Source: Candidatus Poribacteria bacterium (GTDB lineage Bacteria > Poribacteria > WGA-4E > WGA-3G). From it: 64,000 bases of DNA. Numbering within the stretch: position 1 is the first letter of the stretch; each line of letters opens with the position of its first letter. The stretch covers positions 2,530,146-2,594,145 of the forward strand of contig OZ250160.1 of NCBI GenBank assembly GCA_965237835.1, given 5' to 3'. Below, piece after piece: positions 7,340 through 58,561 of this stretch. The position numbers were made by a program, and so were the translations under genes. A model generated the notes under the pieces. It worked only from the letters and a program-made list of their open reading frames with translations. It did not search any database and was not told where the DNA came from.

Positions 7340-8290
7340 TTATAATGGCAAACGAAGTTGATCGGTATACTGTCTGATCCGTTCGTTTGCCAGTTCAATA
7401 TATTTCTCCTCAATATCATAACCAATATAGTGCCTACCAGATTTTACAGCACTCAAACAGGTCGTTCCACTCCCACAAAATGGATCCAAGACAACATCCC
7501 CTACGTAAGTATAGAGTTGAATTAAGCGATGCGGTAGCTCTTCAGGAAACGGAGCAGGATGCCCGATACGTTTCGCAGAAACAGAAGGAAATGTCCAGAC
7601 GCTTTTTGTCCACGCTAAGAAATCTTCTTTGCGAATAGAATTTTCCTTACCATTGCGTTTCCGAGAAAAGGAATCTTTAGAAAAAACGAGGATATATTCG
7701 TGAACATCTCTCAACACAGGGTTCGCCGCCGATAACCAACTTCCCCATGCCGTAGAACTCCCCGCACTTGCGGCTTTGTCCCAGATGATCTCACCACGCA
7801 TGTAGTAGCCTATATCTAACATATCTTCTATGATGTAACTATGCAACGGGATATACGGTTTTCGCCCTAAATTAGCGATATTAATACACGCCCTGCCACC
7901 AGTCACCAGTTTTTTATAGGTTTCAGCAAACACGGATCGGAGAAGTTCCCTATACCCATCCAGTGACAAATCATCGTCGTACTCCTTTTTCGCATTGTAA
8001 GGTGGTGAGGTAACCATCAGATGGATGCTTGCATCGGGGATAGTAGACATCTCCTCGCTGGAGACACAATAGAGTTGGTCAAGACTTTCAGGTGGAATAG
8101 CATTTTCTATCCAATTATCAGGTTCTGGTATCTCCTGCTCTGCGTAGAGTTTCCCTTTATAAAATTCACTGGAGTCATGGTTGATTCTTCCGGGTGTTCC
8201 GAACGCGCTTGTCTGGGTGCCCTGCTTTTGAGATTCCGAGTTTGATTTACCCATACTTTCTATGTGCCTCAATATCGATCCGGATACCAA
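7340..8290 (-). CDS. Beta-class DNA methyltransferase (N4-cytosine/N6-adenine; the SPPY motif suggests N4C)
   Basis: Motif IV VTSPPYN precedes motif I DPFCGSGTT (circularly permuted beta-class order, PF01555-like). Confidence 0.8.
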   Translation of the reverse strand: MVSGSILRHIESMGKSNSESQKQGTQTSAFGTPGRINHDSSEFYKGKLYAEQEIPEPDNWIENAIPPESLDQLYCVSSEEMSTIPDASIHLMVTSPPYNAKKEYDDDLSLDGYRELLRSVFAETYKKLVTGGRACINIANLGRKPYIPLHSYIIEDMLDIGYYMRGEIIWDKAASAGSSTAWGSWLSAANPVLRDVHEYILVFSKDSFSRKRNGKENSIRKEDFLAWTKSVWTFPSVSAKRIGHPAPFPEELPHRLIQLYTYVGDVVLDPFCGSGTTCLSAVKSGRHYIGYDIEEKYIELANERIRQYTDQLRLPL

Positions 8291-10940: not shown

Positions 10941-11712
10941 ATGAAGACAGTTAAAAATTTTTCTTGGAAGAGGGAAATCGAGGATGGTGCGCTGCATCGT
11001 CGGTTTTTGGAAACAGGCAGCGAAGCAGCACTGCGTTTGCTTATGCAGAAGTACTATAAGCCAATTTGTAGTCACGTTTTCGCGATCTTGAAAGATCATC
11101 AAGATGCAGATGAAATCACAAATGAAACCTTCCTCAAAGCCTTCAATAAGAGGGAAACGATCAAGTATCCTGATAAACTCGTGAGTTGGTTATATAAGAC
11201 CGCGAAAAATGCGGCGATTGAGCGATTAAGAGCCAGACAACGAGATGTTCACCAGATGCTCGATTTAGTCTCTCTTGATAATTTGGATGCTGAAAGAGAA
11301 GCTGCAGCCGCATCAATATTTGCGGCACAGCAGATTGAGACTGATCAATACTTGTTGACAAGTCTGCTGCGACTTCATAACGGAAAAGGATCGTGAGGTT
11401 GTAGAATACTTATTAGATGACCTAAAGCCGAAGCAGATTGCTGAAGTGATAGACTCCACACCGGAAGCAGTTCAGAAAAGATGGGAACGGATACTCAAGT
11501 GGTTAAGCCCGATTGCTCACCGATTAGACGAACTGCTTAATAACCTTCCGCCTCAAGAACGGAAAATAATGGAACGGTATTTAGATAATCAACCTCTTGA
11601 AGAGATTAGTGAAAAATTAGGTATCTCCCCGACTAATGTTAAAGCATGCGTGAAACGTGTGATGAAGCAGTGGAAGAAAACCACAAGGCAAACGCCACGA
11701 AACGGAGGATAA
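10941..11712 (+). pseudogene. ECF (sigma-70 family) sigma factor, split by an apparent +1 frameshift near 11375-11380
   Basis: Region 2 (ETFLKAF, KLVSWLYKTAKNAAIERLRARQR) lies in frame 0 and ends at 11396. A region-4 HTH (EISEKLGISPTNVKACVKRV) continues in another frame to 11712. Deleting one A in the A-run restores LRLHNGKDREVVEYLLDDL. Confidence 0.6.
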
Positions 11713-12482: not shown

Positions 12483-13256
12483 ATGAAATTGTATCGTGTT
12501 CTTTTACTAATTTTCTGTTCAGGCATCCTCTTCGTTGGTGTCGTTAGTGATATTTCAGCAGCAGGTTTTGATCGTGACGGTCCCTATGAAGCTTCTGTAG
12601 ATGCCCGTCGCTTTGGCGGAAATGAAAACAGATTACATGTCAATTTGTATGCAAGGGCTTCTAGTACTGACCGAGCGAGAAATGGTTACTTGAATATATT
12701 TCTTAAGATAACTAACGGATGGTCAGTAGATCCGGCTGTTACCCCTGTTGATAGTCACGTCTGGCTTTGGGATCACCGTGATTTTCAGTTTGAAGAAAAC
12801 GGAGGCTATGTTTATGCATATGCTTCTGGACAAGACACAGGGAGAGCCTGGTATACCGCCTACACTGACGACACTGCGGAGCCGATGCCTCCTCCTGATC
12901 CTCCACCCGCCACCAACCCCACCAACCCCACCAACCCCGAACCACAATTGGGCATATCCCCCGTAGATCCAGATGACACTCCTTATCCCGGCGAAGCACA
13001 TGAGTACAGACTTGTCACAGATGCACCTTATTACTATGTGTATTGGTATGTGAAGGCACCTTGGGAGACAAGTGAACGCGGATCATATATAGGGAGTGAC
13101 TCAGGTGACGGCACGACAACTGAAGCAACATTCAGTTACACGTTCCCGAGCGGTGCAATGCATACTGGAGATTTTCTGATAACAGCGGTCATTTACCGGT
13201 GGTCAGATATGTCTGAGTATGAGGAGACCTATACTGCGACTGTGTTGTTAGATTAA
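12483..13256 (+). CDS. Cassette protein Y1: secreted protein with a variable N-domain, a Pro-rich linker and a conserved C-terminal domain
   Basis: Signal peptide. Linker PMPPPDPPPATNPTNPTNPEPQLGISPVDPDD. The C-domain (...YYYVYWYVKAPWETSERG...YEETYTATVLLD) is shared with 16066-16836 and 20579-21358. RBS-coupled 10 bp after X1. Confidence 0.7.
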   Translation: MKLYRVLLLIFCSGILFVGVVSDISAAGFDRDGPYEASVDARRFGGNENRLHVNLYARASSTDRARNGYLNIFLKITNGWSVDPAVTPVDSHVWLWDHRDFQFEENGGYVYAYASGQDTGRAWYTAYTDDTAEPMPPPDPPPATNPTNPTNPEPQLGISPVDPDDTPYPGEAHEYRLVTDAPYYYVYWYVKAPWETSERGSYIGSDSGDGTTTEATFSYTFPSGAMHTGDFLITAVIYRWSDMSEYEETYTATVLLD

Positions 13257-13292
13257 AAATTATGTCACATTTATCAGTATGAATAACAATAG

Positions 13293-13330
13293 ACAGGTAA
13301 CTTTGCGGTTACCTGTCTTCTCTTTTTATC
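13293..13330 (+). terminator. Rho-independent terminator after Y1 (copies follow Y2 and Y3)
   Basis: acaggtaac-tttgc-ggttacctgt followed by cttctctttttat. Confidence 0.6.
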
Positions 13331-13338
13331 AGAAAAAG

Positions 13339-13367
13339 TTGACATGTAACATGTATACGCGTATATT
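13339..13367 (+). promoter_or_regulatory. Near-consensus sigma-70 promoter upstream of the WD40 gene
   Basis: TTGACA, 17-nt spacer, TATATT. Identical in the duplicated intergenic segments at 16919 and about 21437. Confidence 0.5.
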
Positions 13368-13544
13368 ATCTGAACCAGGATTTTCAGGATTATCAGATTT
13401 TCAGGATTATAGATACTTCCTCAAATGAACAAGGACTTTGTTGAGAAATATAGATTTGAAGATAATACTAGCAGAAGATAGCCATCCATCTAAAAGCATA
13501 CTAATCCTGATAATCCCATAATCCTGTCCATCCTGGTTCAGACA
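13368..13544. repeat. ~177-bp element bounded by ~40-bp imperfect inverted repeats (tctgaaccaggatt...aatcctggttcaga), MITE-like family 2, forming the 5' leader of the WD40 gene
   Basis: Left arm tctgaaccaggattttcaggattatcag, right arm ctaatcctgataatcccataatcctgtccatcctggttcaga. A complete copy lies at 34728-34852 and partial copies near 31716, 52640 and 55385. Confidence 0.5.
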
Positions 13545-13643
13545 ATCCGAGATTTAGACAGAACCTTTGACATTTAATCCAACACATAGTAGAATAAACA
13601 CAACGTTAATTGGTATTAGAACAGCACATAGGAGAACACACCC

Positions 13644-14753
13644 ATGAGAAACAGATTGTTTTCAATTTTTACAGCACTGTTTGTAGCACTCCCATTTATG
13701 ACCTGCAGTCTCCCATCAGGTTCATTGGAGGATCCGCTGCATGATCCACAGCAAGCCCCGCAGCAAGAGCATTTACCCGAAGGCGCGAAAGGGCGCATCA
13801 AGAAAGACAGGATCAATGATATAGCGTATTCACCAGACGGCACAAAGCTCGCTGTAGCAGGTGGTAGCGGTATTTGGCTCTACGATGCACAGACAGGTCA
13901 TGAACTTGTCCAATTCGCAGGACATACCGGTAAAGTCCACAACGTGGCATTTAGTCCGGATGGAAAGACTATCGTAAGTGCCGGTACCAGTTACGATCGG
14001 ACCATTCGTATATGGGATGTGAACACGGGAAGAAACCTACGAACATTCAAATATCAGGTCTTTGACGTTGCGTTTAGTCCGGATGGAAAGACGATCATAA
14101 GTGGCAGTCATGACAAAAACCTCTACTTATTGGATGCGGACACAGGTAAACTCCTACGCACCCTCTCTGGGCATACGGATTTTGTCTGGTACGTGGCGTT
14201 TAGTCCGGACGGAAAAACTATTGCAAGTCGCAGTCAAGACCAGACCATTTGTCTGTGGGATGCGGACATAGGTAAACTCCTACAAACAATCACATGGCAT
14301 TCGCATCTGCCCAAGCATCCTCTCAAGCATCCTCTCAATACCGTAATTTTTAGTCCTGATGGAAAGATGATCGCAAGTGTTGGTGATGACCAGACTATTT
14401 GGCTGTGGGATGTGAACACGGGAAAACAACTACGAACAATCGCAAGAAACACGTCTCCTCATCGTAAGAACTTGGCATTTAGTCCGGATGGAAGCATGAT
14501 TGCATGTAACAATTGGAAGGATATTGATCTGTGGGATGTGAACACGGGAAAACTCCTACGAACACTCACAGGGTATCGGGAGAATAACCCACCGCGTCGG
14601 GACCGGTTCAGCGGACATATTTTAGGATCCCCCTGGGTCTTTATGGTGGTGTTCAGTCCGGATGGAAAGACTATCGCAGGTGCCAGTGGGCATGGCGTCC
14701 ATCTGTGGGATGTGAACACGGGATACCTCCAAAAACTCATCAGTGGTTTTTGA
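13644..14753 (+). CDS. WD40 repeat beta-propeller protein with N-terminal secretion/lipoprotein-like signal (WD40-1)
   Basis: Repeated [21 protein letters not shown] WD40 units. Signal [17 protein letters not shown]. Confidence 0.85.
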   Translation: MRNRLFSIFTALFVALPFMTCSLPSGSLEDPLHDPQQAPQQEHLPEGAKGRIKKDRINDIAYSPDGTKLAVAGGSGIWLYDAQTGHELVQFAGHTGKVHNVAFSPDGKTIVSAGTSYDRTIRIWDVNTGRNLRTFKYQVFDVAFSPDGKTIISGSHDKNLYLLDADTGKLLRTLSGHTDFVWYVAFSPDGKTIASRSQDQTICLWDADIGKLLQTITWHSHLPKHPLKHPLNTVIFSPDGKMIASVGDDQTIWLWDVNTGKQLRTIARNTSPHRKNLAFSPDGSMIACNNWKDIDLWDVNTGKLLRTLTGYRENNPPRRDRFSGHILGSPWVFMVVFSPDGKTIAGASGHGVHLWDVNTGYLQKLISGF

Positions 14754-16836: not shown

Positions 16837-17223
16837 AAATTATGTCACATTTATCAGTATGAATAACAATAGACAGGTAACTTTGCGGTTACCTGTCTTC
16901 TCTTTTTATCAGAAAAAGTTGACATGTAACATGTATACGCGTATATTATCTGAACCAGGATTTTCAGGATTATCAGATTTTCAGGATTATAGATACTTCC
17001 TCAAATGAACAAGGACTTTGTTGAGAAATATAGATTTGAAGATAATACTAGCAGAAGATAGCCATCCATCTAAAAGCATACTAATCCTGATAATCCCATA
17101 ATCCTGTCCATCCTGGTTCAGACAATCCGAGATTTAGACAGAACCTTTGACATTTAATCCAACACATAGTAGAATAAACACAACGTTAATTGGTATTAGA
17201 ACAGCACATAGGAGAACACACCC

Positions 17224-19640: not shown

Positions 19641-19808
19641 ATGAAGACAGTTAAAAATTTTTATAGGGAACGGTATTTAGACAATCAACCTCTCAAAGAG
19701 ATTAGTGAAAAATTGGGTATTTCTCTGACTAATGTTGAAGTATGCGTGAAACGTGTGATAAAGCAGTGGAAGAAATCCACAAGGCAAACGCCACGAAACG
19801 GAGGATAA
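19641..19808 (+). pseudogene. In-frame internal-deletion remnant of the ECF sigma gene (55-aa ORF retaining only the region-4 HTH)
   Basis: The first 7 codons (MKTVKNF) are fused to YRERYLDNQPLKEISEKLGISLTNVEVCVKRV. The upstream 140 bp is identical to 10800-10940. Confidence 0.5.
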
Positions 19809-21358: not shown

Positions 21359-21768
21359 AATTACGTCGCATTTATCATTGTGAATAACAACAGACAGGTA
21401 TCCTTGAGGTTACCTGTCTTCTCTTTTTATCAGAAAAAGTTGACATGTAACATGTATACGCGTATATTATCTGAACCAGGATTCTCAAGATTACCAGATT
21501 TTCAGGATTATAGATACTTCCTCAAATGAACAAGGACTTTGTCGAGAAATATAGATTTGAAGATAATACTAACTAGCAGAAGATAGCCATCCATCTAAAA
21601 GCATACTAATCCTGTCCATCCTGGTTCAGACAATCCGAGATTCAGACAGAACCTTTGACATTTAATCCAACATATAGTAGAATAAACGCAACATTAAAAT
21701 GATTTATATTTAGCCCGCGTCTTTCTATCCAGATAGGTATTTAGCACAGCACACAGGAGAACACACCC

Positions 21769-30039: not shown

Positions 30040-30850
30040 GTAGGTCGGGTAGAGCGTCCGCGAAACCCATAAGCGTCAATTTAAGAAAAGTCTGCGTTTT
30101 TATAAACACCTCTCAATAAGCATGAGGACTGAGATTGTCTTATATTTAGTCCCGTAGGGACGAAATGTTTATAGTACCTCGTCCTGCAAACCCATCTCTT
30201 CAGCTCCGTAGGAGCGAAATGTGTATAACGTCTTATTATAAACATATTGCCCCGCTGGGGAAATCAAAGAGCATTTTTCATATTTGAAATATCACTAAAT
30301 TGACGCCTATGGGTAGAGCGTCCGCGAAACCCGACAAGATTATTGTATCAGCACATGCCGGGTTTCGCTCTGCTCTACCCATAGGCGTCAATTTAAGAAA
30401 AGTCTGCGTTTTTATAAACACCTCTCAATAAGCATGAGGACTGAGATTGTCTTATATTTAGTCCCGTAGGGACGAAATGTTTATAGTACCTCGTCCTGCA
30501 AACCCATCTCTTCAGCTCCGTAGGAGCGATATGTGTATAACGTCTTATATAAACATATCGCCCCGTTGGGGAAATCAAAGAGCATTTTTCATATTTGAAA
30601 TATCACTAAATTGACACCTATGGGTTTCGCTCTGCTCTACCCATTAACGTCAATTTAGGCGTTTTTTGAGAATGAGACATGCTCTTTAATCCCGTAGGGA
30701 CGCAATGTTTATAGCAACGGAGGCACCCCCCCAATTCTTTAGCCCCGACGAATGCCATACGCGCATTCGGCGTTGATTTGGTAAGGGCGGAATGTTTATA
30801 ACGTGTTATTTCACATCTCACAATTAAAAAGTTGACATCTGCCCTTAGAT
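30040..30850. repeat. Mosaic REP/BIME-like repeat cluster: two ~300-bp units of hairpin modules delimited by taaattgacgcctatg...palindrome REPs
   Basis: The unit aagaaaagtctgcg...cccgtagggacgaaatgtttatag...ccgtaggagcgaaatgtgtataac...ccccgctgggg occurs twice. Related clusters lie at 36895-37510 and 49400-50120. Confidence 0.6.
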
Positions 30851-31712: not shown

Positions 31713-31811
31713 TTGCAGTCAAGGATCTGAACCAGGATTATTTCCATCTATTGTCCTTGAATGTCCGAGGCGCAATAAATTGCGCGACTACAAACGAAGA
31801 TTTAAAATTAT

Positions 31812-34727: not shown

Positions 34728-34852
34728 CCGGTAATTTGTCTGAACCAGGATTCACAGGATTTTCGGATTTTCAAGGTTAGGAGTTGCGGATACAACCTAC
34801 GATGAGACGATGGGCGCGGCGTTCCTTAATCCTGAAAATCCTGGTTCAGACA
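34728..34852. repeat. MITE-like element family 2 (complete copy; IRs tctgaaccaggatt / aatcctggttcaga)
   Basis: Inverted repeats at both ends. Same family as the WD40 leader element. Confidence 0.5.
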
Positions 34853-34854
34853 AA

Positions 34855-52620: not shown

Positions 52621-52766
52621 CAACACTACAAAAAAATATTAGATGAGAACAACTCTGAAAATCCTATAATCCTGTGAATCCTGGTTCAGAAAAGATGAAT
52701 TTATTGAGAAATATGCCTCTTTAATGATATAATCTATGTTGCTACCATTACAATGGAGGGTATACA

Positions 52767-55320: not shown

Positions 55321-55424
55321 TTGTCTTTAGCACCAGCAGTGCGAAAGGTATATAGAATTTGAGAAAACCCTTGATATAACAGTTCCTAATCCTGAAAATC
55401 CTTGTTCAGACAAACCCGAATTTT

Positions 55425-55455
55425 CCCCTTGCAATCACACCCCGATTCGCATATA
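55425..55455 (+). promoter_or_regulatory. Sigma-70-type promoter for the Type IIG gene
   Basis: TTGCAA, 17 nt, TATAAT. Preceded by the family-2 element tail cctaatcctgaaaatccttgttcagacaaa. Confidence 0.45.
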
Positions 55456-55456
55456 A

Positions 55457-58400
55457 TTGCCGTTGCATCAATATCAACAGTCACAAGGGGACACCATGCC
55501 ATCTCTCAACATCAAACCCACACACAAACCGATCAAGACATACTACATGGAACTGGAAAAATATGAACAACTCGGCGCAGAAAACGAGGGCAGCGTCAGA
55601 GCAGCATTCCAAAACCTACTACAGCACTACTGCGGACAATCCAACCTCACGCTCCTTTGCGAAAAAACGATCCACACCACAGATAACAGGCGGATAATCC
55701 CTGATGGCGAAATCGTTGACGTATACAAATTACCGCACGGCTATTGGGAAGCAAAAGATACACAGGACGACCTACATAGCGAAGCAGACAAGAAGTTCAC
55801 CGTAGGCTACCCCTCCAAAAACATCGTGTTTCAATCACCGACACACGCGCTCCTCTATCAGAACGGGCAGCTACGACTTGACACAGACATCACCGACCCG
55901 AAAAACCTTGTCCAAGTGCTGCAAACCTTCTTAGCATATCAAGAGGAGAACATCACAGCGTGGCATCAGGCTGTCGCAGAATTCAGAGAGATTGTCCCAC
56001 AACTCGGTGAAAAACTGGCGACGTTGATCCAAACCGAACGTCAGAACAATCCACATTTTCAGGAGGCGTTCTCCAATTTCCATCAGCAGTGCCAAACCTC
56101 TATTAACCCGAATCTATCTATCGCTGCAGTTGAGGAGATGCTCATCCAGCACCTGCTAACCGAACGGATATTCGCTACCATTTTTGATAACCGCGACTTC
56201 ACCCGCAGAAATATCATCGCACGCGAGATTGAAAATGTTATTGATGTGCTTACTGAACGCACCCTGAACCGATCCGAATTTCTCCGTCACTTGAACCCGT
56301 TTTACGTAGCAATAGAGAAAACTGCCCGCACGATTACCGATTTCTCACAGAAACAGGGATTTCTGAATGCGGTTTATGAGCAGTTTTTTCAAGGCTTCTC
56401 TGTCAAGGTCGCAGATACGCACGGTATCGTCTACACACCGCAACCGATTGTGGATTTCATGGTGAAAAGCGTTGAACACATTGGACAGACAATGTTCGGT
56501 CGTTCCCTGTCCGATAGCGGTGTGCATATCATTGACCCATTTGTCGGCACTGGCAACTTCATTGTCCGCATCATGCAGGAACTTGACCCGATCGCACTGG
56601 AACGGAAATACACCGCCGACCCGCCAGAACTGCAGTGCAATGAGGTGATGCTCCTACCATACTACATCGCCAGTCTGAACATAGAACATCAGTTTTTCAC
56701 GGCGACGAACCGGTACGCCGCATTTGAAGGTATCTGCCTTGTGGATACTTTTGAAATGGCAGAGGATCGGCAGATGTCGCTATTTGTGCCTGCAAACACG
56801 GCACGCGTTGAGAAACAGAAGCAGACACCGATGTTTGTGGTTATCGGCAATCCGCCCTACAATATGGGACAGGTGAATGAGAACGACAACAACAAAAATC
56901 GCAAATATGAGACGATGGACAAGCGGATTGCGGATACTTATGTGAAAGATTCTAAAGCGACGCTCAGAAATAAACTCTACGATCCTTATGTCAAGGCGAT
57001 TCGGTGGGGCTTGGACAGGATTGGTGAGGAAGGGGTTGTCGCCTTTGTTACGAACAATAGTTTTCTTGATGGCATTGCGTTTGATGGCATGCGGAAACAC
57101 CTTGCAGAGGATTGCGATGCTATCTACATTCTGGATTTAGGCGGAAATGCGCGGAAGGGATTGAAGGTCTCCGATGCCAATGTATTCGGTATTCGGGTTG
57201 GGGTGAGCATCAATCTATTTGTCAAGAAAAAGGATGATTCATCTGAGACACCGCACCTCTTTTACTATCGCACCGATGACTTGTGGAACAAAAAACAGAA
57301 GTTTGATTTTCTCAATGAACGTCAACACATAGGCGGTATTGAATGGCGACCTATTCTACCGGATGCACGGCAAACATGGCTCACCGAAGGTCTGCACGCC
57401 GAGTTTGACACTTTTATTTCAATGGGAGACAAGGAAACGAAAAGATCTACAAGTGAGGTCGATTCAATTTTTCGTCTTTACTCTTTGGGAGTTGCTACAA
57501 ACAGAGATGTTTTGGTTTATTCTTTTGATCTTGGCTTGTTACAAGAACGCGTTGACACATTTATTGAAATATACAATACAACCGCTGATAGGAAGAGGAG
57601 GCACAGTCCGAAGGATCCCGTTGAAAGTTTCATTGATACGAATGATCCTTGCATCAAATGGACTCGTCAAGTTAAAGCATCGCTGAAAAGACTTGAGCCA
57701 AGCAGCTACGAAGAGACACACTTTCGTTCTGCTTTGTATCGTCCGTTCTGTCAGAAACATCTCTACTTTGATAATTTTTGGAATGAGGAACGTTATCAAC
57801 AACATCGAATTTTTCCTACATCAGAGGTAGAAATTGAAAATCAGGTAATTTGTGTTGGAGGGTACGGTAGAAAAGAATTTGCTGTTTTGATGAGCAATTC
57901 TATTCCTGACTTGAATCTATATTCTGATCCGCACCAATGCTTCCCGTTCTACACCTACGACGAAGATGGCACAAATCGCCGCGAAAACATCACCGATTGG
58001 GCATTGGCGCAGTTCCGCATGCACTACAAAGACGACTCCATCAGCAAGTGGGACATCTTCCACTATAACTACGGCATCCTGCATCATCCGGACTATCGCA
58101 ATAAGTATCAGGCGAACCTCAAGCGCGACCTGCCGCATATCCCGTTTGCCCAAGATTTTTGGGGATTTGCCAACGCTGGCGCGCGCTTAGCAGACATACA
58201 CGTCAACTACGAATCCCAACCCGAATATGACAAACTCAAGTTCGTGCAGAACCCAAACGTCCCGCTCAATTGGCGCGTTGAGAAGATGAAACTTGCCAAA
58301 GATAAAACCTCGCTTGTCTACAATGATTTTTTGACGCTTGATGGTATTCCAGCAAAGACGTTTGACTATCGGCTTGGCACCCGTTCTGCGTTGGAATGGA

Positions 58401-58561
58401 TTATCAATCAGTATTGTGTCAAAACGGACAAGCGGAGTGGCATCGTCAACGACCCGAATCGTGCCGATGATCCGCAATATATTGTGCGGTTGATTGGGCA
58501 GGTGATTTCGGTGAGCTTGGAGACGGTGGATATTGTTGAGAATTTGCCTGCGTTACAGTAG
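55457..58561 (+). CDS. Type IIG/IIL restriction-modification enzyme (MmeI-like: N-terminal PD-(D/E)xK nuclease fused to gamma-class N6-adenine methyltransferase and a TRD)
   Basis: N-terminal IPDGEIVD...WEAKD (the D...ExK of the MmeI family). MTase motif I DPFVGTGNF, motif IV VIGNPPYN. 1034 aa. Confidence 0.7.
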   Translation: MPLHQYQQSQGDTMPSLNIKPTHKPIKTYYMELEKYEQLGAENEGSVRAAFQNLLQHYCGQSNLTLLCEKTIHTTDNRRIIPDGEIVDVYKLPHGYWEAKDTQDDLHSEADKKFTVGYPSKNIVFQSPTHALLYQNGQLRLDTDITDPKNLVQVLQTFLAYQEENITAWHQAVAEFREIVPQLGEKLATLIQTERQNNPHFQEAFSNFHQQCQTSINPNLSIAAVEEMLIQHLLTERIFATIFDNRDFTRRNIIAREIENVIDVLTERTLNRSEFLRHLNPFYVAIEKTARTITDFSQKQGFLNAVYEQFFQGFSVKVADTHGIVYTPQPIVDFMVKSVEHIGQTMFGRSLSDSGVHIIDPFVGTGNFIVRIMQELDPIALERKYTADPPELQCNEVMLLPYYIASLNIEHQFFTATNRYAAFEGICLVDTFEMAEDRQMSLFVPANTARVEKQKQTPMFVVIGNPPYNMGQVNENDNNKNRKYETMDKRIADTYVKDSKATLRNKLYDPYVKAIRWGLDRIGEEGVVAFVTNNSFLDGIAFDGMRKHLAEDCDAIYILDLGGNARKGLKVSDANVFGIRVGVSINLFVKKKDDSSETPHLFYYRTDDLWNKKQKFDFLNERQHIGGIEWRPILPDARQTWLTEGLHAEFDTFISMGDKETKRSTSEVDSIFRLYSLGVATNRDVLVYSFDLGLLQERVDTFIEIYNTTADRKRRHSPKDPVESFIDTNDPCIKWTRQVKASLKRLEPSSYEETHFRSALYRPFCQKHLYFDNFWNEERYQQHRIFPTSEVEIENQVICVGGYGRKEFAVLMSNSIPDLNLYSDPHQCFPFYTYDEDGTNRRENITDWALAQFRMHYKDDSISKWDIFHYNYGILHHPDYRNKYQANLKRDLPHIPFAQDFWGFANAGARLADIHVNYESQPEYDKLKFVQNPNVPLNWRVEKMKLAKDKTSLVYNDFLTLDGIPAKTFDYRLGTRSALEWIINQYCVKTDKRSGIVNDPNRADDPQYIVRLIGQVISVSLETVDIVENLPALQ

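What the first reader, a model, noticed from the sequence alone, without database searches (positions are those of the whole stretch)
13257..13643. Identical 387-bp intergenic module: terminator, consensus sigma-70 promoter, and a ~177-bp inverted-repeat leader immediately at the TSS of each WD40 gene
After each Y gene comes a strong terminator (13293-13330). It is followed by TTGACA-17-TATATT (13339-13367), whose predicted TSS falls inside the left arm of a ~40-bp imperfect inverted repeat (tctgaaccaggatt...aatcctggttcaga). The WD40 mRNA would therefore begin with a ~175-nt stem-loop. Related IR fragments (aatcctg..tggttcagacaaa) also sit just upstream of the sigma-70-like promoters of the 52767 gene and the Type IIG gene, with a complete copy at 34728-34852. 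This could be a MITE that donated regulatory structure, a riboregulatory leader, or a protein-binding operator.
Basis: seen in the sequence. Interest (0 to 1): 0.5.

Follow-up and report, generated by a model that had tools for sequence, protein, structure and literature searches.

The report
Mobile palindromic repeat between tandem promoters
The inverted repeat in front of each WD40 gene is one non-coding copy of an abundant mobile-type repeat of Poribacteria that landed between two promoters, not a purpose-built regulatory leader; the same repeat ends bracket small GxxExxY nuclease-like genes in metagenomes from many environments.

Summary
Module 13257-13643 is identical to 16837-17223, and a third, diverged copy lies at 21359-21768. 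Terminator, TTGACA-17-TATATT promoter (P1) and a 45-nt, 84%-complementary inverted repeat (IR) are all present.

The 100% identity is one stretch of a ~1.45-kb duplication or gene-conversion tract that also covers the WD40 ORF.

The IR is a MITE-like element.
- Each arm is 2-5 tandem 9-mers (AATCCTGnn) ending in GGTTCAGACAA.
- 252 distinct arms were found in 117 genome loci, mostly Poribacteria.
- About 90% are intergenic. No target-site duplication and no transposase were found.
- Distant orthologous spacers (L124-L126) lack the element.
- Close orthologs have lost 9-mers from either arm. In two of them another MITE splits P1. P2 is always kept.
- Arm complementarity shows no covariation.

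So this is a passenger insertion between tandem promoters, and WD40 is most likely transcribed from P2.

Unexpectedly, the same arms bracket GxxExxY (TIGR04256) genes in a Fibrimonadales genome and in metagenomes, with 40-fold enrichment. The Poribacteria copies are ORF-less relatives of those cassettes. I found no description of this in the searchable literature.

The parts
13291..13328 (+). Intrinsic terminator after the Y gene: 12-bp stem, 4-nt loop, T run
   Evidence: It is conserved in all orthologs. L124 carries a compensatory stem change (GACAAGTAAC/GTTACTTGTC).
13339..13367 (+). P1: TTGACA-17-TATATT. The -35 and its upstream context are ancestral. The predicted start falls in the left arm.
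   Evidence: The -35 context TATCAGAAAAAGTTGACATGTAA is conserved in L120-L123, L125 and L126, and L124 keeps a diverged version. P1 is split by a ~130-nt IS630-type MITE in L123 and L120.
13366..13409 (+). Left arm of the element: terminus TTATCTGAACC followed by CAGGATTnn 9-mers
   Evidence: Three 9-mers are deleted in L123 and L120.
13410..13501 (.). Element interior: 92 nt with no ORF. It is unique to this locus and its orthologs among the sequences in hand.
13502..13545 (+). Right arm: AATCCTGnn 9-mers followed by CATCCTGGTTCAGACAA
   Evidence: 17 nt (about two 9-mers) are deleted in copy 3 and in L121.
13544..13561 (+). Second, degenerate right terminus (AATCCGAGATTTAGACAG; AATCCGCGATTCAGACAG in L121)
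   Evidence: This is inferred from its resemblance to the AATCCTGATTCAGACA termini listed.
13567..13595 (+). P2: TTGACA-17-TAGAAT, the proximal promoter of the WD40 gene
   Evidence: It is conserved in every element-bearing ortholog and has a homolog in the empty-site locus L124.
13630..13646 (+). Shine-Dalgarno AGGAG and the ATG of the WD40 lipoprotein gene (13644-14753)
16837..17223 (+). Second, identical copy of the whole module
21359..21768 (+). Third, diverged copy of the module
34736..34853 (.). Complete small element of the same family with an unrelated interior
31726..31739 (+). Solo, truncated left terminus
52655..52693 (+). Solo right arm, 12 nt upstream of TTGAGA-18-TATAAT
55386..55413 (+). 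Solo right arm, 16 nt upstream of TTGCAA-17-TATAAT (Type ISP restriction-modification gene)

Best explanation
The ~180-bp inverted repeat is a non-coding, MITE-like copy of a dispersed palindromic element family.

Anatomy. Each end is an array of 2-5 tandem 9-mers. Each 9-mer has a 7-bp core (AATCCTG) and 2 free bases. The array is capped by the terminus GGTTCAGACAA.

History at this locus.
1. In an ancestor of this lineage, one copy inserted 1 nt after the -10 of the distal promoter P1 and upstream of the proximal promoter P2 of a WD40 lipoprotein gene.
2. The spacer plus the WD40 gene was later copied, by duplication or gene conversion over ~1.45 kb. That is why two modules are identical.

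Consequence (inferred). WD40 is mainly transcribed from P2, giving a ~40-nt leader with an AGGAG ribosome-binding site. Only transcripts that start at P1 would carry the hairpin. At this locus the element is a tolerated passenger.

How the arms work (inferred). They behave as iterated protein-recognition sites, like multi-site transposon ends, not as a selected RNA helix.

Wider family (association shown, derivation inferred). The same ends bracket ~490-bp cassettes encoding a GxxExxY (PD-(D/E)XK-fold) protein in metagenomes from many environments and in one Fibrimonadales genome. The Poribacteria copies are ORF-less relatives of those cassettes.
For: Family membership.
Of these, 102 are Poribacteria. 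The other 15 come from Bacteroidota, Ignavibacteriales, Fibrimonadales, Chloroflexota, Latescibacterota, Uhrbacteria and Marinamargulisbacteria.
- 252 unique arms give a logo whose conservation stops sharply after CAA.
- 75 left-right pairs were found, about 70 of them 86-293 bp long, plus about 100 solo arms.
- Two multi-genome subfamilies share interiors (18 and 13 copies), and many elements have unique interiors.
- About 90% of arms are intergenic in loci that are 81% coding.

Insertion at this locus.
- Orthologous Y-to-WD40 spacers L124, L125 and L126 lack the element. They carry either one promoter (TTGACA-17-TAGAAT) or two abutting promoters.

Not a selected leader.
- In close orthologs the left arm lost three 9-mers (L123, L120), and the right arm lost two (copy 3, L121).
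- P1 is split by an IS630-type MITE in L123 and L120. P2 is intact in all of them.
- Arm complementarity within an element is no better than between elements: 9.5 against 9.1, p = 0.44.
- No Rfam family reaches its threshold.

Identity explained.
- Copies A and B are 96-100% identical from about 13150 to 14600, which includes the WD40 ORF, and at most 37% identical outside the tract and its 75-92% edges.

Link to GxxExxY cassettes.
- In L064 the arms flank an ORF that matches TIGR04256 with E = 1.5e-40.
- In 80 metagenomic GxxExxY loci, arm termini occur at 4.27 per kb within 250 nt of the gene and 0.107 per kb elsewhere.
- 47 clean cassettes of the form left arm, gene, right arm have a median length of 490 bp.
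- The core variant (GGAT or GAAT) agrees between the two arms in 45 of 47 cassettes (Spearman 0.79, p = 4e-11). The 2-nt spacers do not co-vary.
Against: - No target-site duplication of any length or offset was found in 66 elements.
- No transposase lies between arms, and no gene family recurs next to arms. Mobility is therefore inferred from dispersal and from empty versus filled sites, not from a known mechanism.
- The empty-site orthologs are fairly distant (Y protein 58-64% identical), so the exact insertion junction cannot be read.
- No GxxExxY gene was seen in about 0.9 Mb of arm-containing loci, most of them Poribacteria. Mobilisation in trans by that protein is untested.
- No transcript data exist. 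The relative use of P1 and P2 is inferred from conservation only.
- Outward-pointing promoter-like sites are enriched after arms: 43 of 253 against 9 inward. Some influence on neighbouring promoters cannot be excluded.
Confidence: 0.8

Rival explanations
1. Riboregulatory leader. The WD40 mRNA starts at P1 inside the left arm. Its 5' ~175-nt stem-loop then controls stability, processing (for example by RNase III) or translation.
For: P1 matches 11 of 12 consensus positions, and its predicted start lies in the left arm. The P1 transcript folds into the long hairpin (-56 kcal/mol, z = -2.75). No terminator follows the hairpin, so read-through into WD40 is possible.
Against: P2 lies downstream of the IR and is conserved, while P1 is interrupted in L123 and L120. 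The hairpin is shortened by loss of 9-mers in orthologs. It is absent in L124-L126, which encode the same gene pair. There is no covariation and no Rfam match above threshold. Family members occur in both orientations and face gene ends 40% of the time.
Confidence: 0.07
2. Protein-binding operator or architectural array. The iterated 7-bp cores are bound by a host or element-encoded DNA-binding protein, and this binding modulates the adjacent promoters (P1/P2, the 52767 gene, the Type ISP gene).
For: The 7-bp core is conserved while the 2-nt spacer is free. In GxxExxY cassettes the core variant co-varies between arms but the spacers do not. That points to sequence recognition by a protein rather than to base pairing. 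Three window loci have a right arm 12-24 nt upstream of a good -35. Outward promoter-like sites are enriched after arms.
Against: There is no preferred arm-to-promoter distance; the histogram is flat from 10 to 80 nt. 87 of 215 arm outer ends face gene 3' ends. Copy number and dispersal fit a selfish repeat. The enrichment is expected for anything tolerated only in intergenic DNA upstream of genes. Binding by a transposase-like protein is equally compatible with the main explanation.
Confidence: 0.1
3. The two arms are independent solo insertions that happen to face each other, so there is no single element.
For: Solo arms are about as common as paired arms. Within-element complementarity equals between-element complementarity. 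This copy's interior is unique among the sequences in hand.
Against: The empty sites lack the arms and the interior together. Paired arms cluster at a spacing of 110-185 bp. Subfamilies conserve arms plus interior as one unit across genomes.
Confidence: 0.03

Closest known systems
Bacterial MITEs (Correia/NEMIS, ERIC, RUP, Nezha), as summarised in PMC3184786
   Same: Small (86-293 bp), non-coding, with terminal inverted repeats, a stable predicted stem-loop, high copy number and intergenic location. Orthologous sites are either filled or empty. Copies can sit in promoter regions or 5' leaders.
   Different: No target-site duplication. No cognate IS or transposase was found. The ends are arrays of 9-bp iterated motifs rather than a simple terminal inverted repeat. 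The interiors are very heterogeneous: 30 clusters among 68 elements.
REP/REPIN elements and their RAYT transposases (own knowledge; REP definition from the abstract of PMC3733652 as listed)
   Same: No target-site duplication. Both inverted doublets and singlets occur. They are intergenic and numerous. A small nuclease-type gene (here GxxExxY) is itself flanked by the repeats in inverted orientation.
   Different: The arm unit is not a 20-40-nt palindrome and lacks the GTAG or CGTC tag. No HUH/RAYT gene was seen. The same ends occur across many phyla, whereas REP-RAYT pairs are lineage-specific.
Transposon ends with several subterminal transposase-binding sites (Tn7, Mu, IS21; own knowledge)
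   Same: Each end has a short terminal motif followed by iterated, same-oriented binding-site-like repeats. The two ends co-vary in the core motif.
   Different: Those elements make 4-8-bp target duplications and encode large DDE transposases. Neither feature is seen here.
23S rRNA intervening sequences carrying a small ORF (own knowledge; mentioned in PMC10053308)
   Same: A small ORF is bracketed by long inverted repeats that would form a stem in a host transcript. GxxExxY cassettes often sit inside operons and end 1-10 nt before the next start codon.
   Different: None of the copies seen is in rRNA. The cargo is GxxExxY, not the four-helix-bundle protein. RNase III excision is untested.

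Membership tests
MITE (classical, transposase-mobilised) | Short non-coding element with terminal inverted repeats | tested here: met
   Arms are 45 nt and 84% complementary. Pairs measure 86-293 bp.
MITE (classical, transposase-mobilised) | Flanking target-site duplication | tested here: not met
   No direct repeat of 2-9 nt at any offset exceeds chance in 66 elements.
MITE (classical, transposase-mobilised) | Terminal repeats shared with an autonomous IS that encodes a transposase | tested here: not met
   Wider arm pairs enclose ordinary genes. No neighbour family recurs. The ORFs flanking solo arms show no recurrent transposase; the single IS701-family hit next to arms in L104 was not followed up. 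The only cargo found is GxxExxY. Whole genomes were not scanned.
MITE (classical, transposase-mobilised) | Dispersed multi-copy distribution with filled and empty orthologous sites | tested here: met
   More than 117 loci. About 90% of arms are intergenic. Empty sites in L124-L126 and filled sites in the window and L120-L123.
REP/REPIN-RAYT | 20-40-nt palindromic unit with a GTAG or CGTC tag | tested here: not met
   The arm is a non-palindromic 9-mer array with the terminus GTCTGAAC.
REP/REPIN-RAYT | Cognate HUH (RAYT) gene flanked by the repeats | not tested
   No whole-genome scan was possible. None was seen in about 0.9 Mb of loci.
Cis-regulatory RNA leader | Conserved secondary structure supported by covariation | tested here: not met
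   Within-element and between-element arm complementarity are equal. Spacer positions do not co-vary. Arms are truncated in orthologs.
Cis-regulatory RNA leader | Constant position between the promoter and one class of regulated genes | tested here: not met
   Arms face gene starts 128 times and gene ends 87 times, at variable distances. The element is absent from the orthologous WD40 spacers L124-L126.
Cis-regulatory RNA leader | Match to a curated RNA family | tested here: not met
   No hit at gathering thresholds. Only sub-threshold miRNA-precursor-like hairpin hits.
GxxExxY-cassette end family (defined here) | Terminus GTCTGAAYCAGRATT followed by iterated CAGRATTnn 9-mers, in inverted orientation at both ends | tested here: met
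   The window arms match the cassette arms listed and those of L064.
GxxExxY-cassette end family (defined here) | GxxExxY (TIGR04256) ORF between the arms | tested here: not met
   The window interior is 92 nt with no ORF. tblastn finds no GxxExxY in the window or in the 117 arm-containing genome loci other than L064. The window copy is therefore an ORF-less relative.
Intrinsic terminator (13291-13328) | G+C-rich stem followed by a T run, with the stem conserved | tested here: met
   A compensatory G-C to A-T change occurs in L124.

The most novel reading that the evidence does not exclude
The 9-mer-array arms may be the recognition ends of a previously undescribed, pan-bacterial class of small mobile cassettes that make no target-site duplication. 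On this reading their only gene, the ~120-aa GxxExxY PD-(D/E)XK-fold protein, is the nuclease that mobilises them, in a relationship like that of REPINs and RAYTs. Poribacteria would then have undergone a massive expansion of ORF-less derivatives; extrapolating from 11 arm termini in this 64-kb window gives on the order of hundreds to a thousand arms per genome. This would give the GxxExxY family, whose function is listed as unknown, a role as a selfish-element nuclease.
Probability: 0.25. Interest if true: 0.75.

Novelty: new variant of a known kind. Interest (0 to 1): 0.5.

Why it matters
For this locus, the result removes a tempting but wrong reading. The striking, identical "leader" is a repeat insertion carried along by a recent 1.45-kb duplication, and the WD40 genes keep their own proximal promoter.

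More broadly, it defines a very abundant repeat family of sponge-symbiont Poribacteria. Such a family matters for assembly, for annotation and for promoter prediction in these genomes.

It also links that family, by shared ends, to cassettes that carry the uncharacterised GxxExxY protein in metagenomes from many environments and in one Fibrimonadales genome. That gives a concrete, testable hypothesis about what the GxxExxY family does and about how an element that makes no target-site duplication spreads.

Tried and rejected
- Rfam at gathering thresholds over the whole window, and at E-value thresholds over the module, found nothing meaningful.
- Literature string searches for the arm sequences, for Poribacteria MITEs, and for GxxExxY, PF13366 and TIGR04256 found no description of these repeats. 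PF13366 is listed with function unknown and with multiple horizontal transfers (PMC3424549).
- A search for a target-site duplication at all offsets and lengths found none.
- A search for an autonomous element found nothing convincing. Wide left-right pairs enclose ordinary genes, ORFs near arms do not cluster into a family, and ORFs on the inner side of solo arms show no recurrent transposase. The only hits were an IS701-family transposase fragment next to arms in L104 and Rpn-like genes in L062, neither followed up.
- The metagenome scan with the Y protein found nothing.
- BLAST of a consensus arm against plasmids gave only unannotated variants, in Dolichospermum and Thiodictyon. Against phages it gave only weak partial matches in Salmonella phages.
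- The idea that the arms are kept complementary by selection was rejected.
- The idea that P1 is part of a repeat was only partly followed. A similar promoter with the palindrome ATGTATACGCGTATACAT lies inside elements in L049. This remains unexplained.
- A resemblance of the interior motif TTGATGAG to the hammerhead core was considered and dropped. The first base differs, and the Rfam searches, which covered only this window, gave no hit.

Full report
**What is in the sequence.**

The spacer between the Y gene (12483-13256) and the WD40 gene (13644-14753) reads, in order:
- an intrinsic terminator with a 12-bp stem at 13291-13318 and a T run;
- promoter P1, TTGACA-17-TATATT, at 13339-13367;
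- an inverted repeat;
- an AGGAG ribosome-binding site and the ATG.

The repeat arms are 13365-13409 and 13502-13546. They are 45 nt long, 84% complementary and 92 nt apart. As single-stranded DNA the element folds at -33.2 kcal/mol (z = -6.65). The RNA that would start at P1 folds at -56 kcal/mol (z = -2.75).

The module 13257-13643 is identical to 16837-17223. A third copy at 21359-21768 carries substitutions, a 17-nt deletion in the right arm, a 4-nt interior insertion and a 36-nt insertion.

The terminal 14-mer occurs 13 times in the window against 0.67 expected. The double 9-mer occurs 15 times against 0.61 expected. Each solo right arm lies 12-16 nt upstream of a sigma-70-like site.

**Why two modules are identical.**

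An ungapped comparison of cassette A with cassette B (offset 3580) gives 96-100% identity from about 13150 to 14600. That span covers the 3' end of Y, the whole spacer and nearly all of the WD40 ORF. Identity is 75-92% at the edges of the tract and at most 37% beyond them. The identity therefore reflects a recent ~1.45-kb duplication or gene-conversion tract. It is not selection on the spacer.

**Anatomy of the repeat and its family.**

Each arm is a run of tandem 9-mers (CAGGATTnn on the left, nnAATCCTG on the right) capped by TTGTCTGAACC / GGTTCAGACAA.

Fewer than one hit is expected by chance for about 21 specified bases.
- 102 loci are Candidatus Poribacteria genomes. The window itself comes from a 5.93-Mb Poribacteria contig.
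- The other 15 come from Pontibacter, Mucilaginibacter, Hanamia, Cytophagales, Ignavibacteriales, Fibrimonadales, Dehalococcoidia/SAR202, Latescibacterota, Uhrbacteria and Marinamargulisbacteria.
- Variants occur on Dolichospermum and Thiodictyon plasmids and on nine IMG/VR contigs.

In these loci plus the window I found:
- 252 distinct arms, whose logo is conserved through the 7-bp cores, free at the 2-nt spacers, and ends abruptly after CAA;
- 75 left-right pairs, about 70 of them 86-293 bp long, plus about 100 solo arms;
- two interior subfamilies spread over several genomes (18 and 13 copies), alongside many unique interiors, including the window's own.

About 90% of arms are intergenic in loci that are 81% coding. 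Their outer ends face gene starts 128 times and gene ends 87 times. Outward-pointing promoter-like sites are enriched after arms (43 of 253 against 9 inward), but at no preferred distance.

No target-site duplication exists at any offset or length in 66 elements. No transposase lies between wider pairs or recurs next to arms.

**Evidence that the copy at this locus is an insertion and not a conserved leader.**

Y-protein homologs occur only in Poribacteria-type assemblies. I fetched the encoding contigs.

Close orthologs (L120-L123, Y 80-90% identical) carry the element at the same place, but in decayed forms:
- L123 and L120 lost three 9-mers of the left arm.
- Copy 3 and L121 lost 17 nt (about two 9-mers) of the right arm.
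- L121 has internal duplications.
- In L123 and L120 a ~130-nt IS630-type MITE, flanked by TA, separates the -35 of P1 from its -10.
- L120 also has an IS630-like transposase inserted in the terminator.
- P2 and the downstream leader are intact in all of them.

More distant orthologs (L124, L125, L126; Y 58-64% identical) lack the element entirely:
- L125 and L126 have a single promoter, TTGACAtgtaaa...TAGAAT, in the same -35 context as P1.
- L124 has two abutting promoters (TTGACC-17-TAGAAT, then TTGACC-17-TAGCAT) with nothing between them. The second is homologous to P2.

So the element entered 1 nt after the -10 of P1, between tandem promoters. The 18 nt after the right arm (AATCCGAGATTTAGACAG) look like a second, degenerate right terminus.

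Arm complementarity within an element (score 9.5) is no higher than between arms of different elements (9.1; p = 0.44). Rfam gives nothing above threshold.

Together these results argue against a selected RNA structure. They support P2 as the working WD40 promoter, with P1-derived hairpin transcripts as a side product at most. This last step is inferred, because no transcript data were available.

**An unexpected link to GxxExxY cassettes.**

In the Fibrimonadales locus L064 the same arms bracket a 133-aa ORF that matches TIGR04256 (GxxExxY protein) with E = 1.5e-40. A metagenome scan with this protein returned 80 loci.
- Arm termini occur at 4.27 per kb within 250 nt of the gene and at 0.107 per kb elsewhere in the same loci.
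- The commonest layout is a left arm roughly 50-80 nt upstream and a right arm roughly 40-70 nt downstream. It is seen 36 times under a strict nearest-arm count. A looser criterion gives 47 clean cassettes with a median length of 490 bp. Another 11 genes are flanked by ORF-less left-right mini-elements.
- Cassettes use either a GGAT or a GAAT core, and the two arms of a cassette agree in 45 of 47 cases (Spearman 0.79, p = 4e-11).
- Position by position, the core purine matches between arms in 87-93% of cassettes at three of the four 9-mers (80% at the fourth), against 47-52% for random partners. The 2-nt spacers match no better than random partners.

This pattern fits iterated protein-recognition sites that co-evolve at both ends. 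It does not fit a continuous helix.

Many cassettes end 1-10 nt before the next gene's start codon. A truncated GxxExxY gene with the same right arm lies on an IMG/VR contig. No GxxExxY gene is present in the window or in the 117 arm-containing genome loci, most of them Poribacteria, apart from L064. The Poribacteria elements are therefore ORF-less relatives, and what mobilises them is unknown.

**Comparison with what is known.**

The element works like a bacterial MITE in six respects: it is small, non-coding, palindromic, dispersed, intergenic, and present at some orthologous sites but absent at others. These criteria follow PMC3184786. It fails two defining MITE features: a target-site duplication and a cognate transposase.

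It resembles REPIN/RAYT systems in three respects: no target-site duplication, both doublets and singlets, and a small nuclease-type gene flanked by the repeats. It lacks the REP palindrome, the GTAG/CGTC tag and a RAYT gene.

The multi-site ends recall Tn7, Mu and IS21 (own knowledge). The layout of a small ORF between long inverted repeats inside an operon recalls ORF-bearing 23S rRNA intervening sequences (own knowledge; PMC10053308).

PF13366/PDDEXK_3, the Pfam family I take to correspond to GxxExxY (no Pfam scan of the ORF was run), is listed with function unknown and with multiple horizontal transfers (PMC3424549). Searches of the held literature for the arm sequences, for Poribacteria MITEs and for GxxExxY found no description of these repeats. 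That is not proof that none exists.

**Verdict.**

The finding is real, but it is ordinary as gene regulation. It is a repeat insertion between two promoters that was copied along with the gene.

The family behind it is a new variant of the MITE/REPIN kind. It has an unusual end architecture, makes no target-site duplication, occurs across many phyla, and has a specific association with GxxExxY genes.

Scores: interest 0.5; confidence in the main explanation 0.8.

Noticed in passing
window 10941-11712 and about 19670-19805: The ECF-type sigma factor gene upstream of cassette A is frameshifted near 11375. Region 2 lies in ORF 10941-11396 and region 4 in ORF 11446-11712. Orthologs encode one protein of 221-245 aa. 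Only a C-terminal remnant precedes cassette C. This is either a pseudogene or an assembly error.
   Followed up: partly
L123:3790-3925 and L120 (same insertion); window 31755-31800: A ~130-nt IS630-type MITE has terminal repeats TACCAATTCTGA/TCAGAAATGGTA, TA flanks and the core aatgtccgaggcgcaat..gcgcgactac. It splits P1 in two orthologs. The same core sits next to the solo left arm in the window. L120 also has a full IS630-like (DDE_3) transposase inserted in the terminator stem.
   Followed up: partly
L045, L061, L072, L094, L099, L115 (inside element arms): A third small palindromic element (ATCAACGGTATGAATGCCnnnnGGCATTCCCCGGG) is repeatedly nested inside the 9-mer arrays. This suggests it targets the CAGGATT repeats.
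   Followed up: no
L049:2930-3010 and 7400-7460; window 13339-13367: A P1-like promoter (TTGACAtccgacatgtatacgcgTATAAA) carrying the palindrome ATGTATACGCGTATACAT lies inside elements next to the right arm in another Poribacteria genome. In the window the similar P1 lies just outside the left arm. The relationship is unexplained.
   Followed up: partly
window 37142, 45678, 49719, 50048 (also about 30290, 34860, 52530); 30065-30625; 570-831 and 48225: Other repeat families are present. These include long palindromes TAAATTGACGCCTATGGTGCGGTT..AACCGCACCATAGGCGTCAATTTA, a 172-nt family (30065, 30377, 37176, 49436) with an adjoining 78-nt family, and a 131-bp tandem duplication. The window is unusually rich in repeats.
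   Followed up: no
window 13257-13329; L124-L126 spacers: The terminator and the ~35 nt before it (GTCACATTTATCA..GAATAACAACAGACAGG) are conserved even in orthologs whose Y protein is only 58-64% identical, with a compensatory stem change in L124. There is a sub-threshold Rfam hit to Chlorobi-RRM (27 bits against a gathering score of 45).
   Followed up: partly
L129-L208 (for example L132, L144, L158, L176): GxxExxY cassettes frequently end 1-10 nt before the start codon of the next gene (..TTCAGACaATG). Some follow what look like hsdS C-termini (..LMSGxI), judged from memory of HsdS sequences. They seem to lodge inside operons, possibly restriction-modification operons. In the window a solo arm precedes the Type ISP restriction-modification gene.
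   Followed up: no
L102:1915-2609, L034:2132-2586, L040:7238-7982: Elements occur inside tandem arrays with periods of 277-279 bp and 452 bp, so some copies multiply by local tandem duplication.
   Followed up: no
L016:1382-1640 (Ignavibacteriales): A variant unit has the short inverted termini TTGTCTG / CAGACAA enclosing a one-directional array of AATCATnnn 9-mers, next to a standard AATCCTG unit. The core motif diverges between lineages while the terminus is kept.
   Followed up: no
window 55429-55457 and ORF 55457-58561: The listed TTG start of the Type ISP gene overlaps the -10 of its best promoter-like site. The true start codon is probably further downstream.
   Followed up: no
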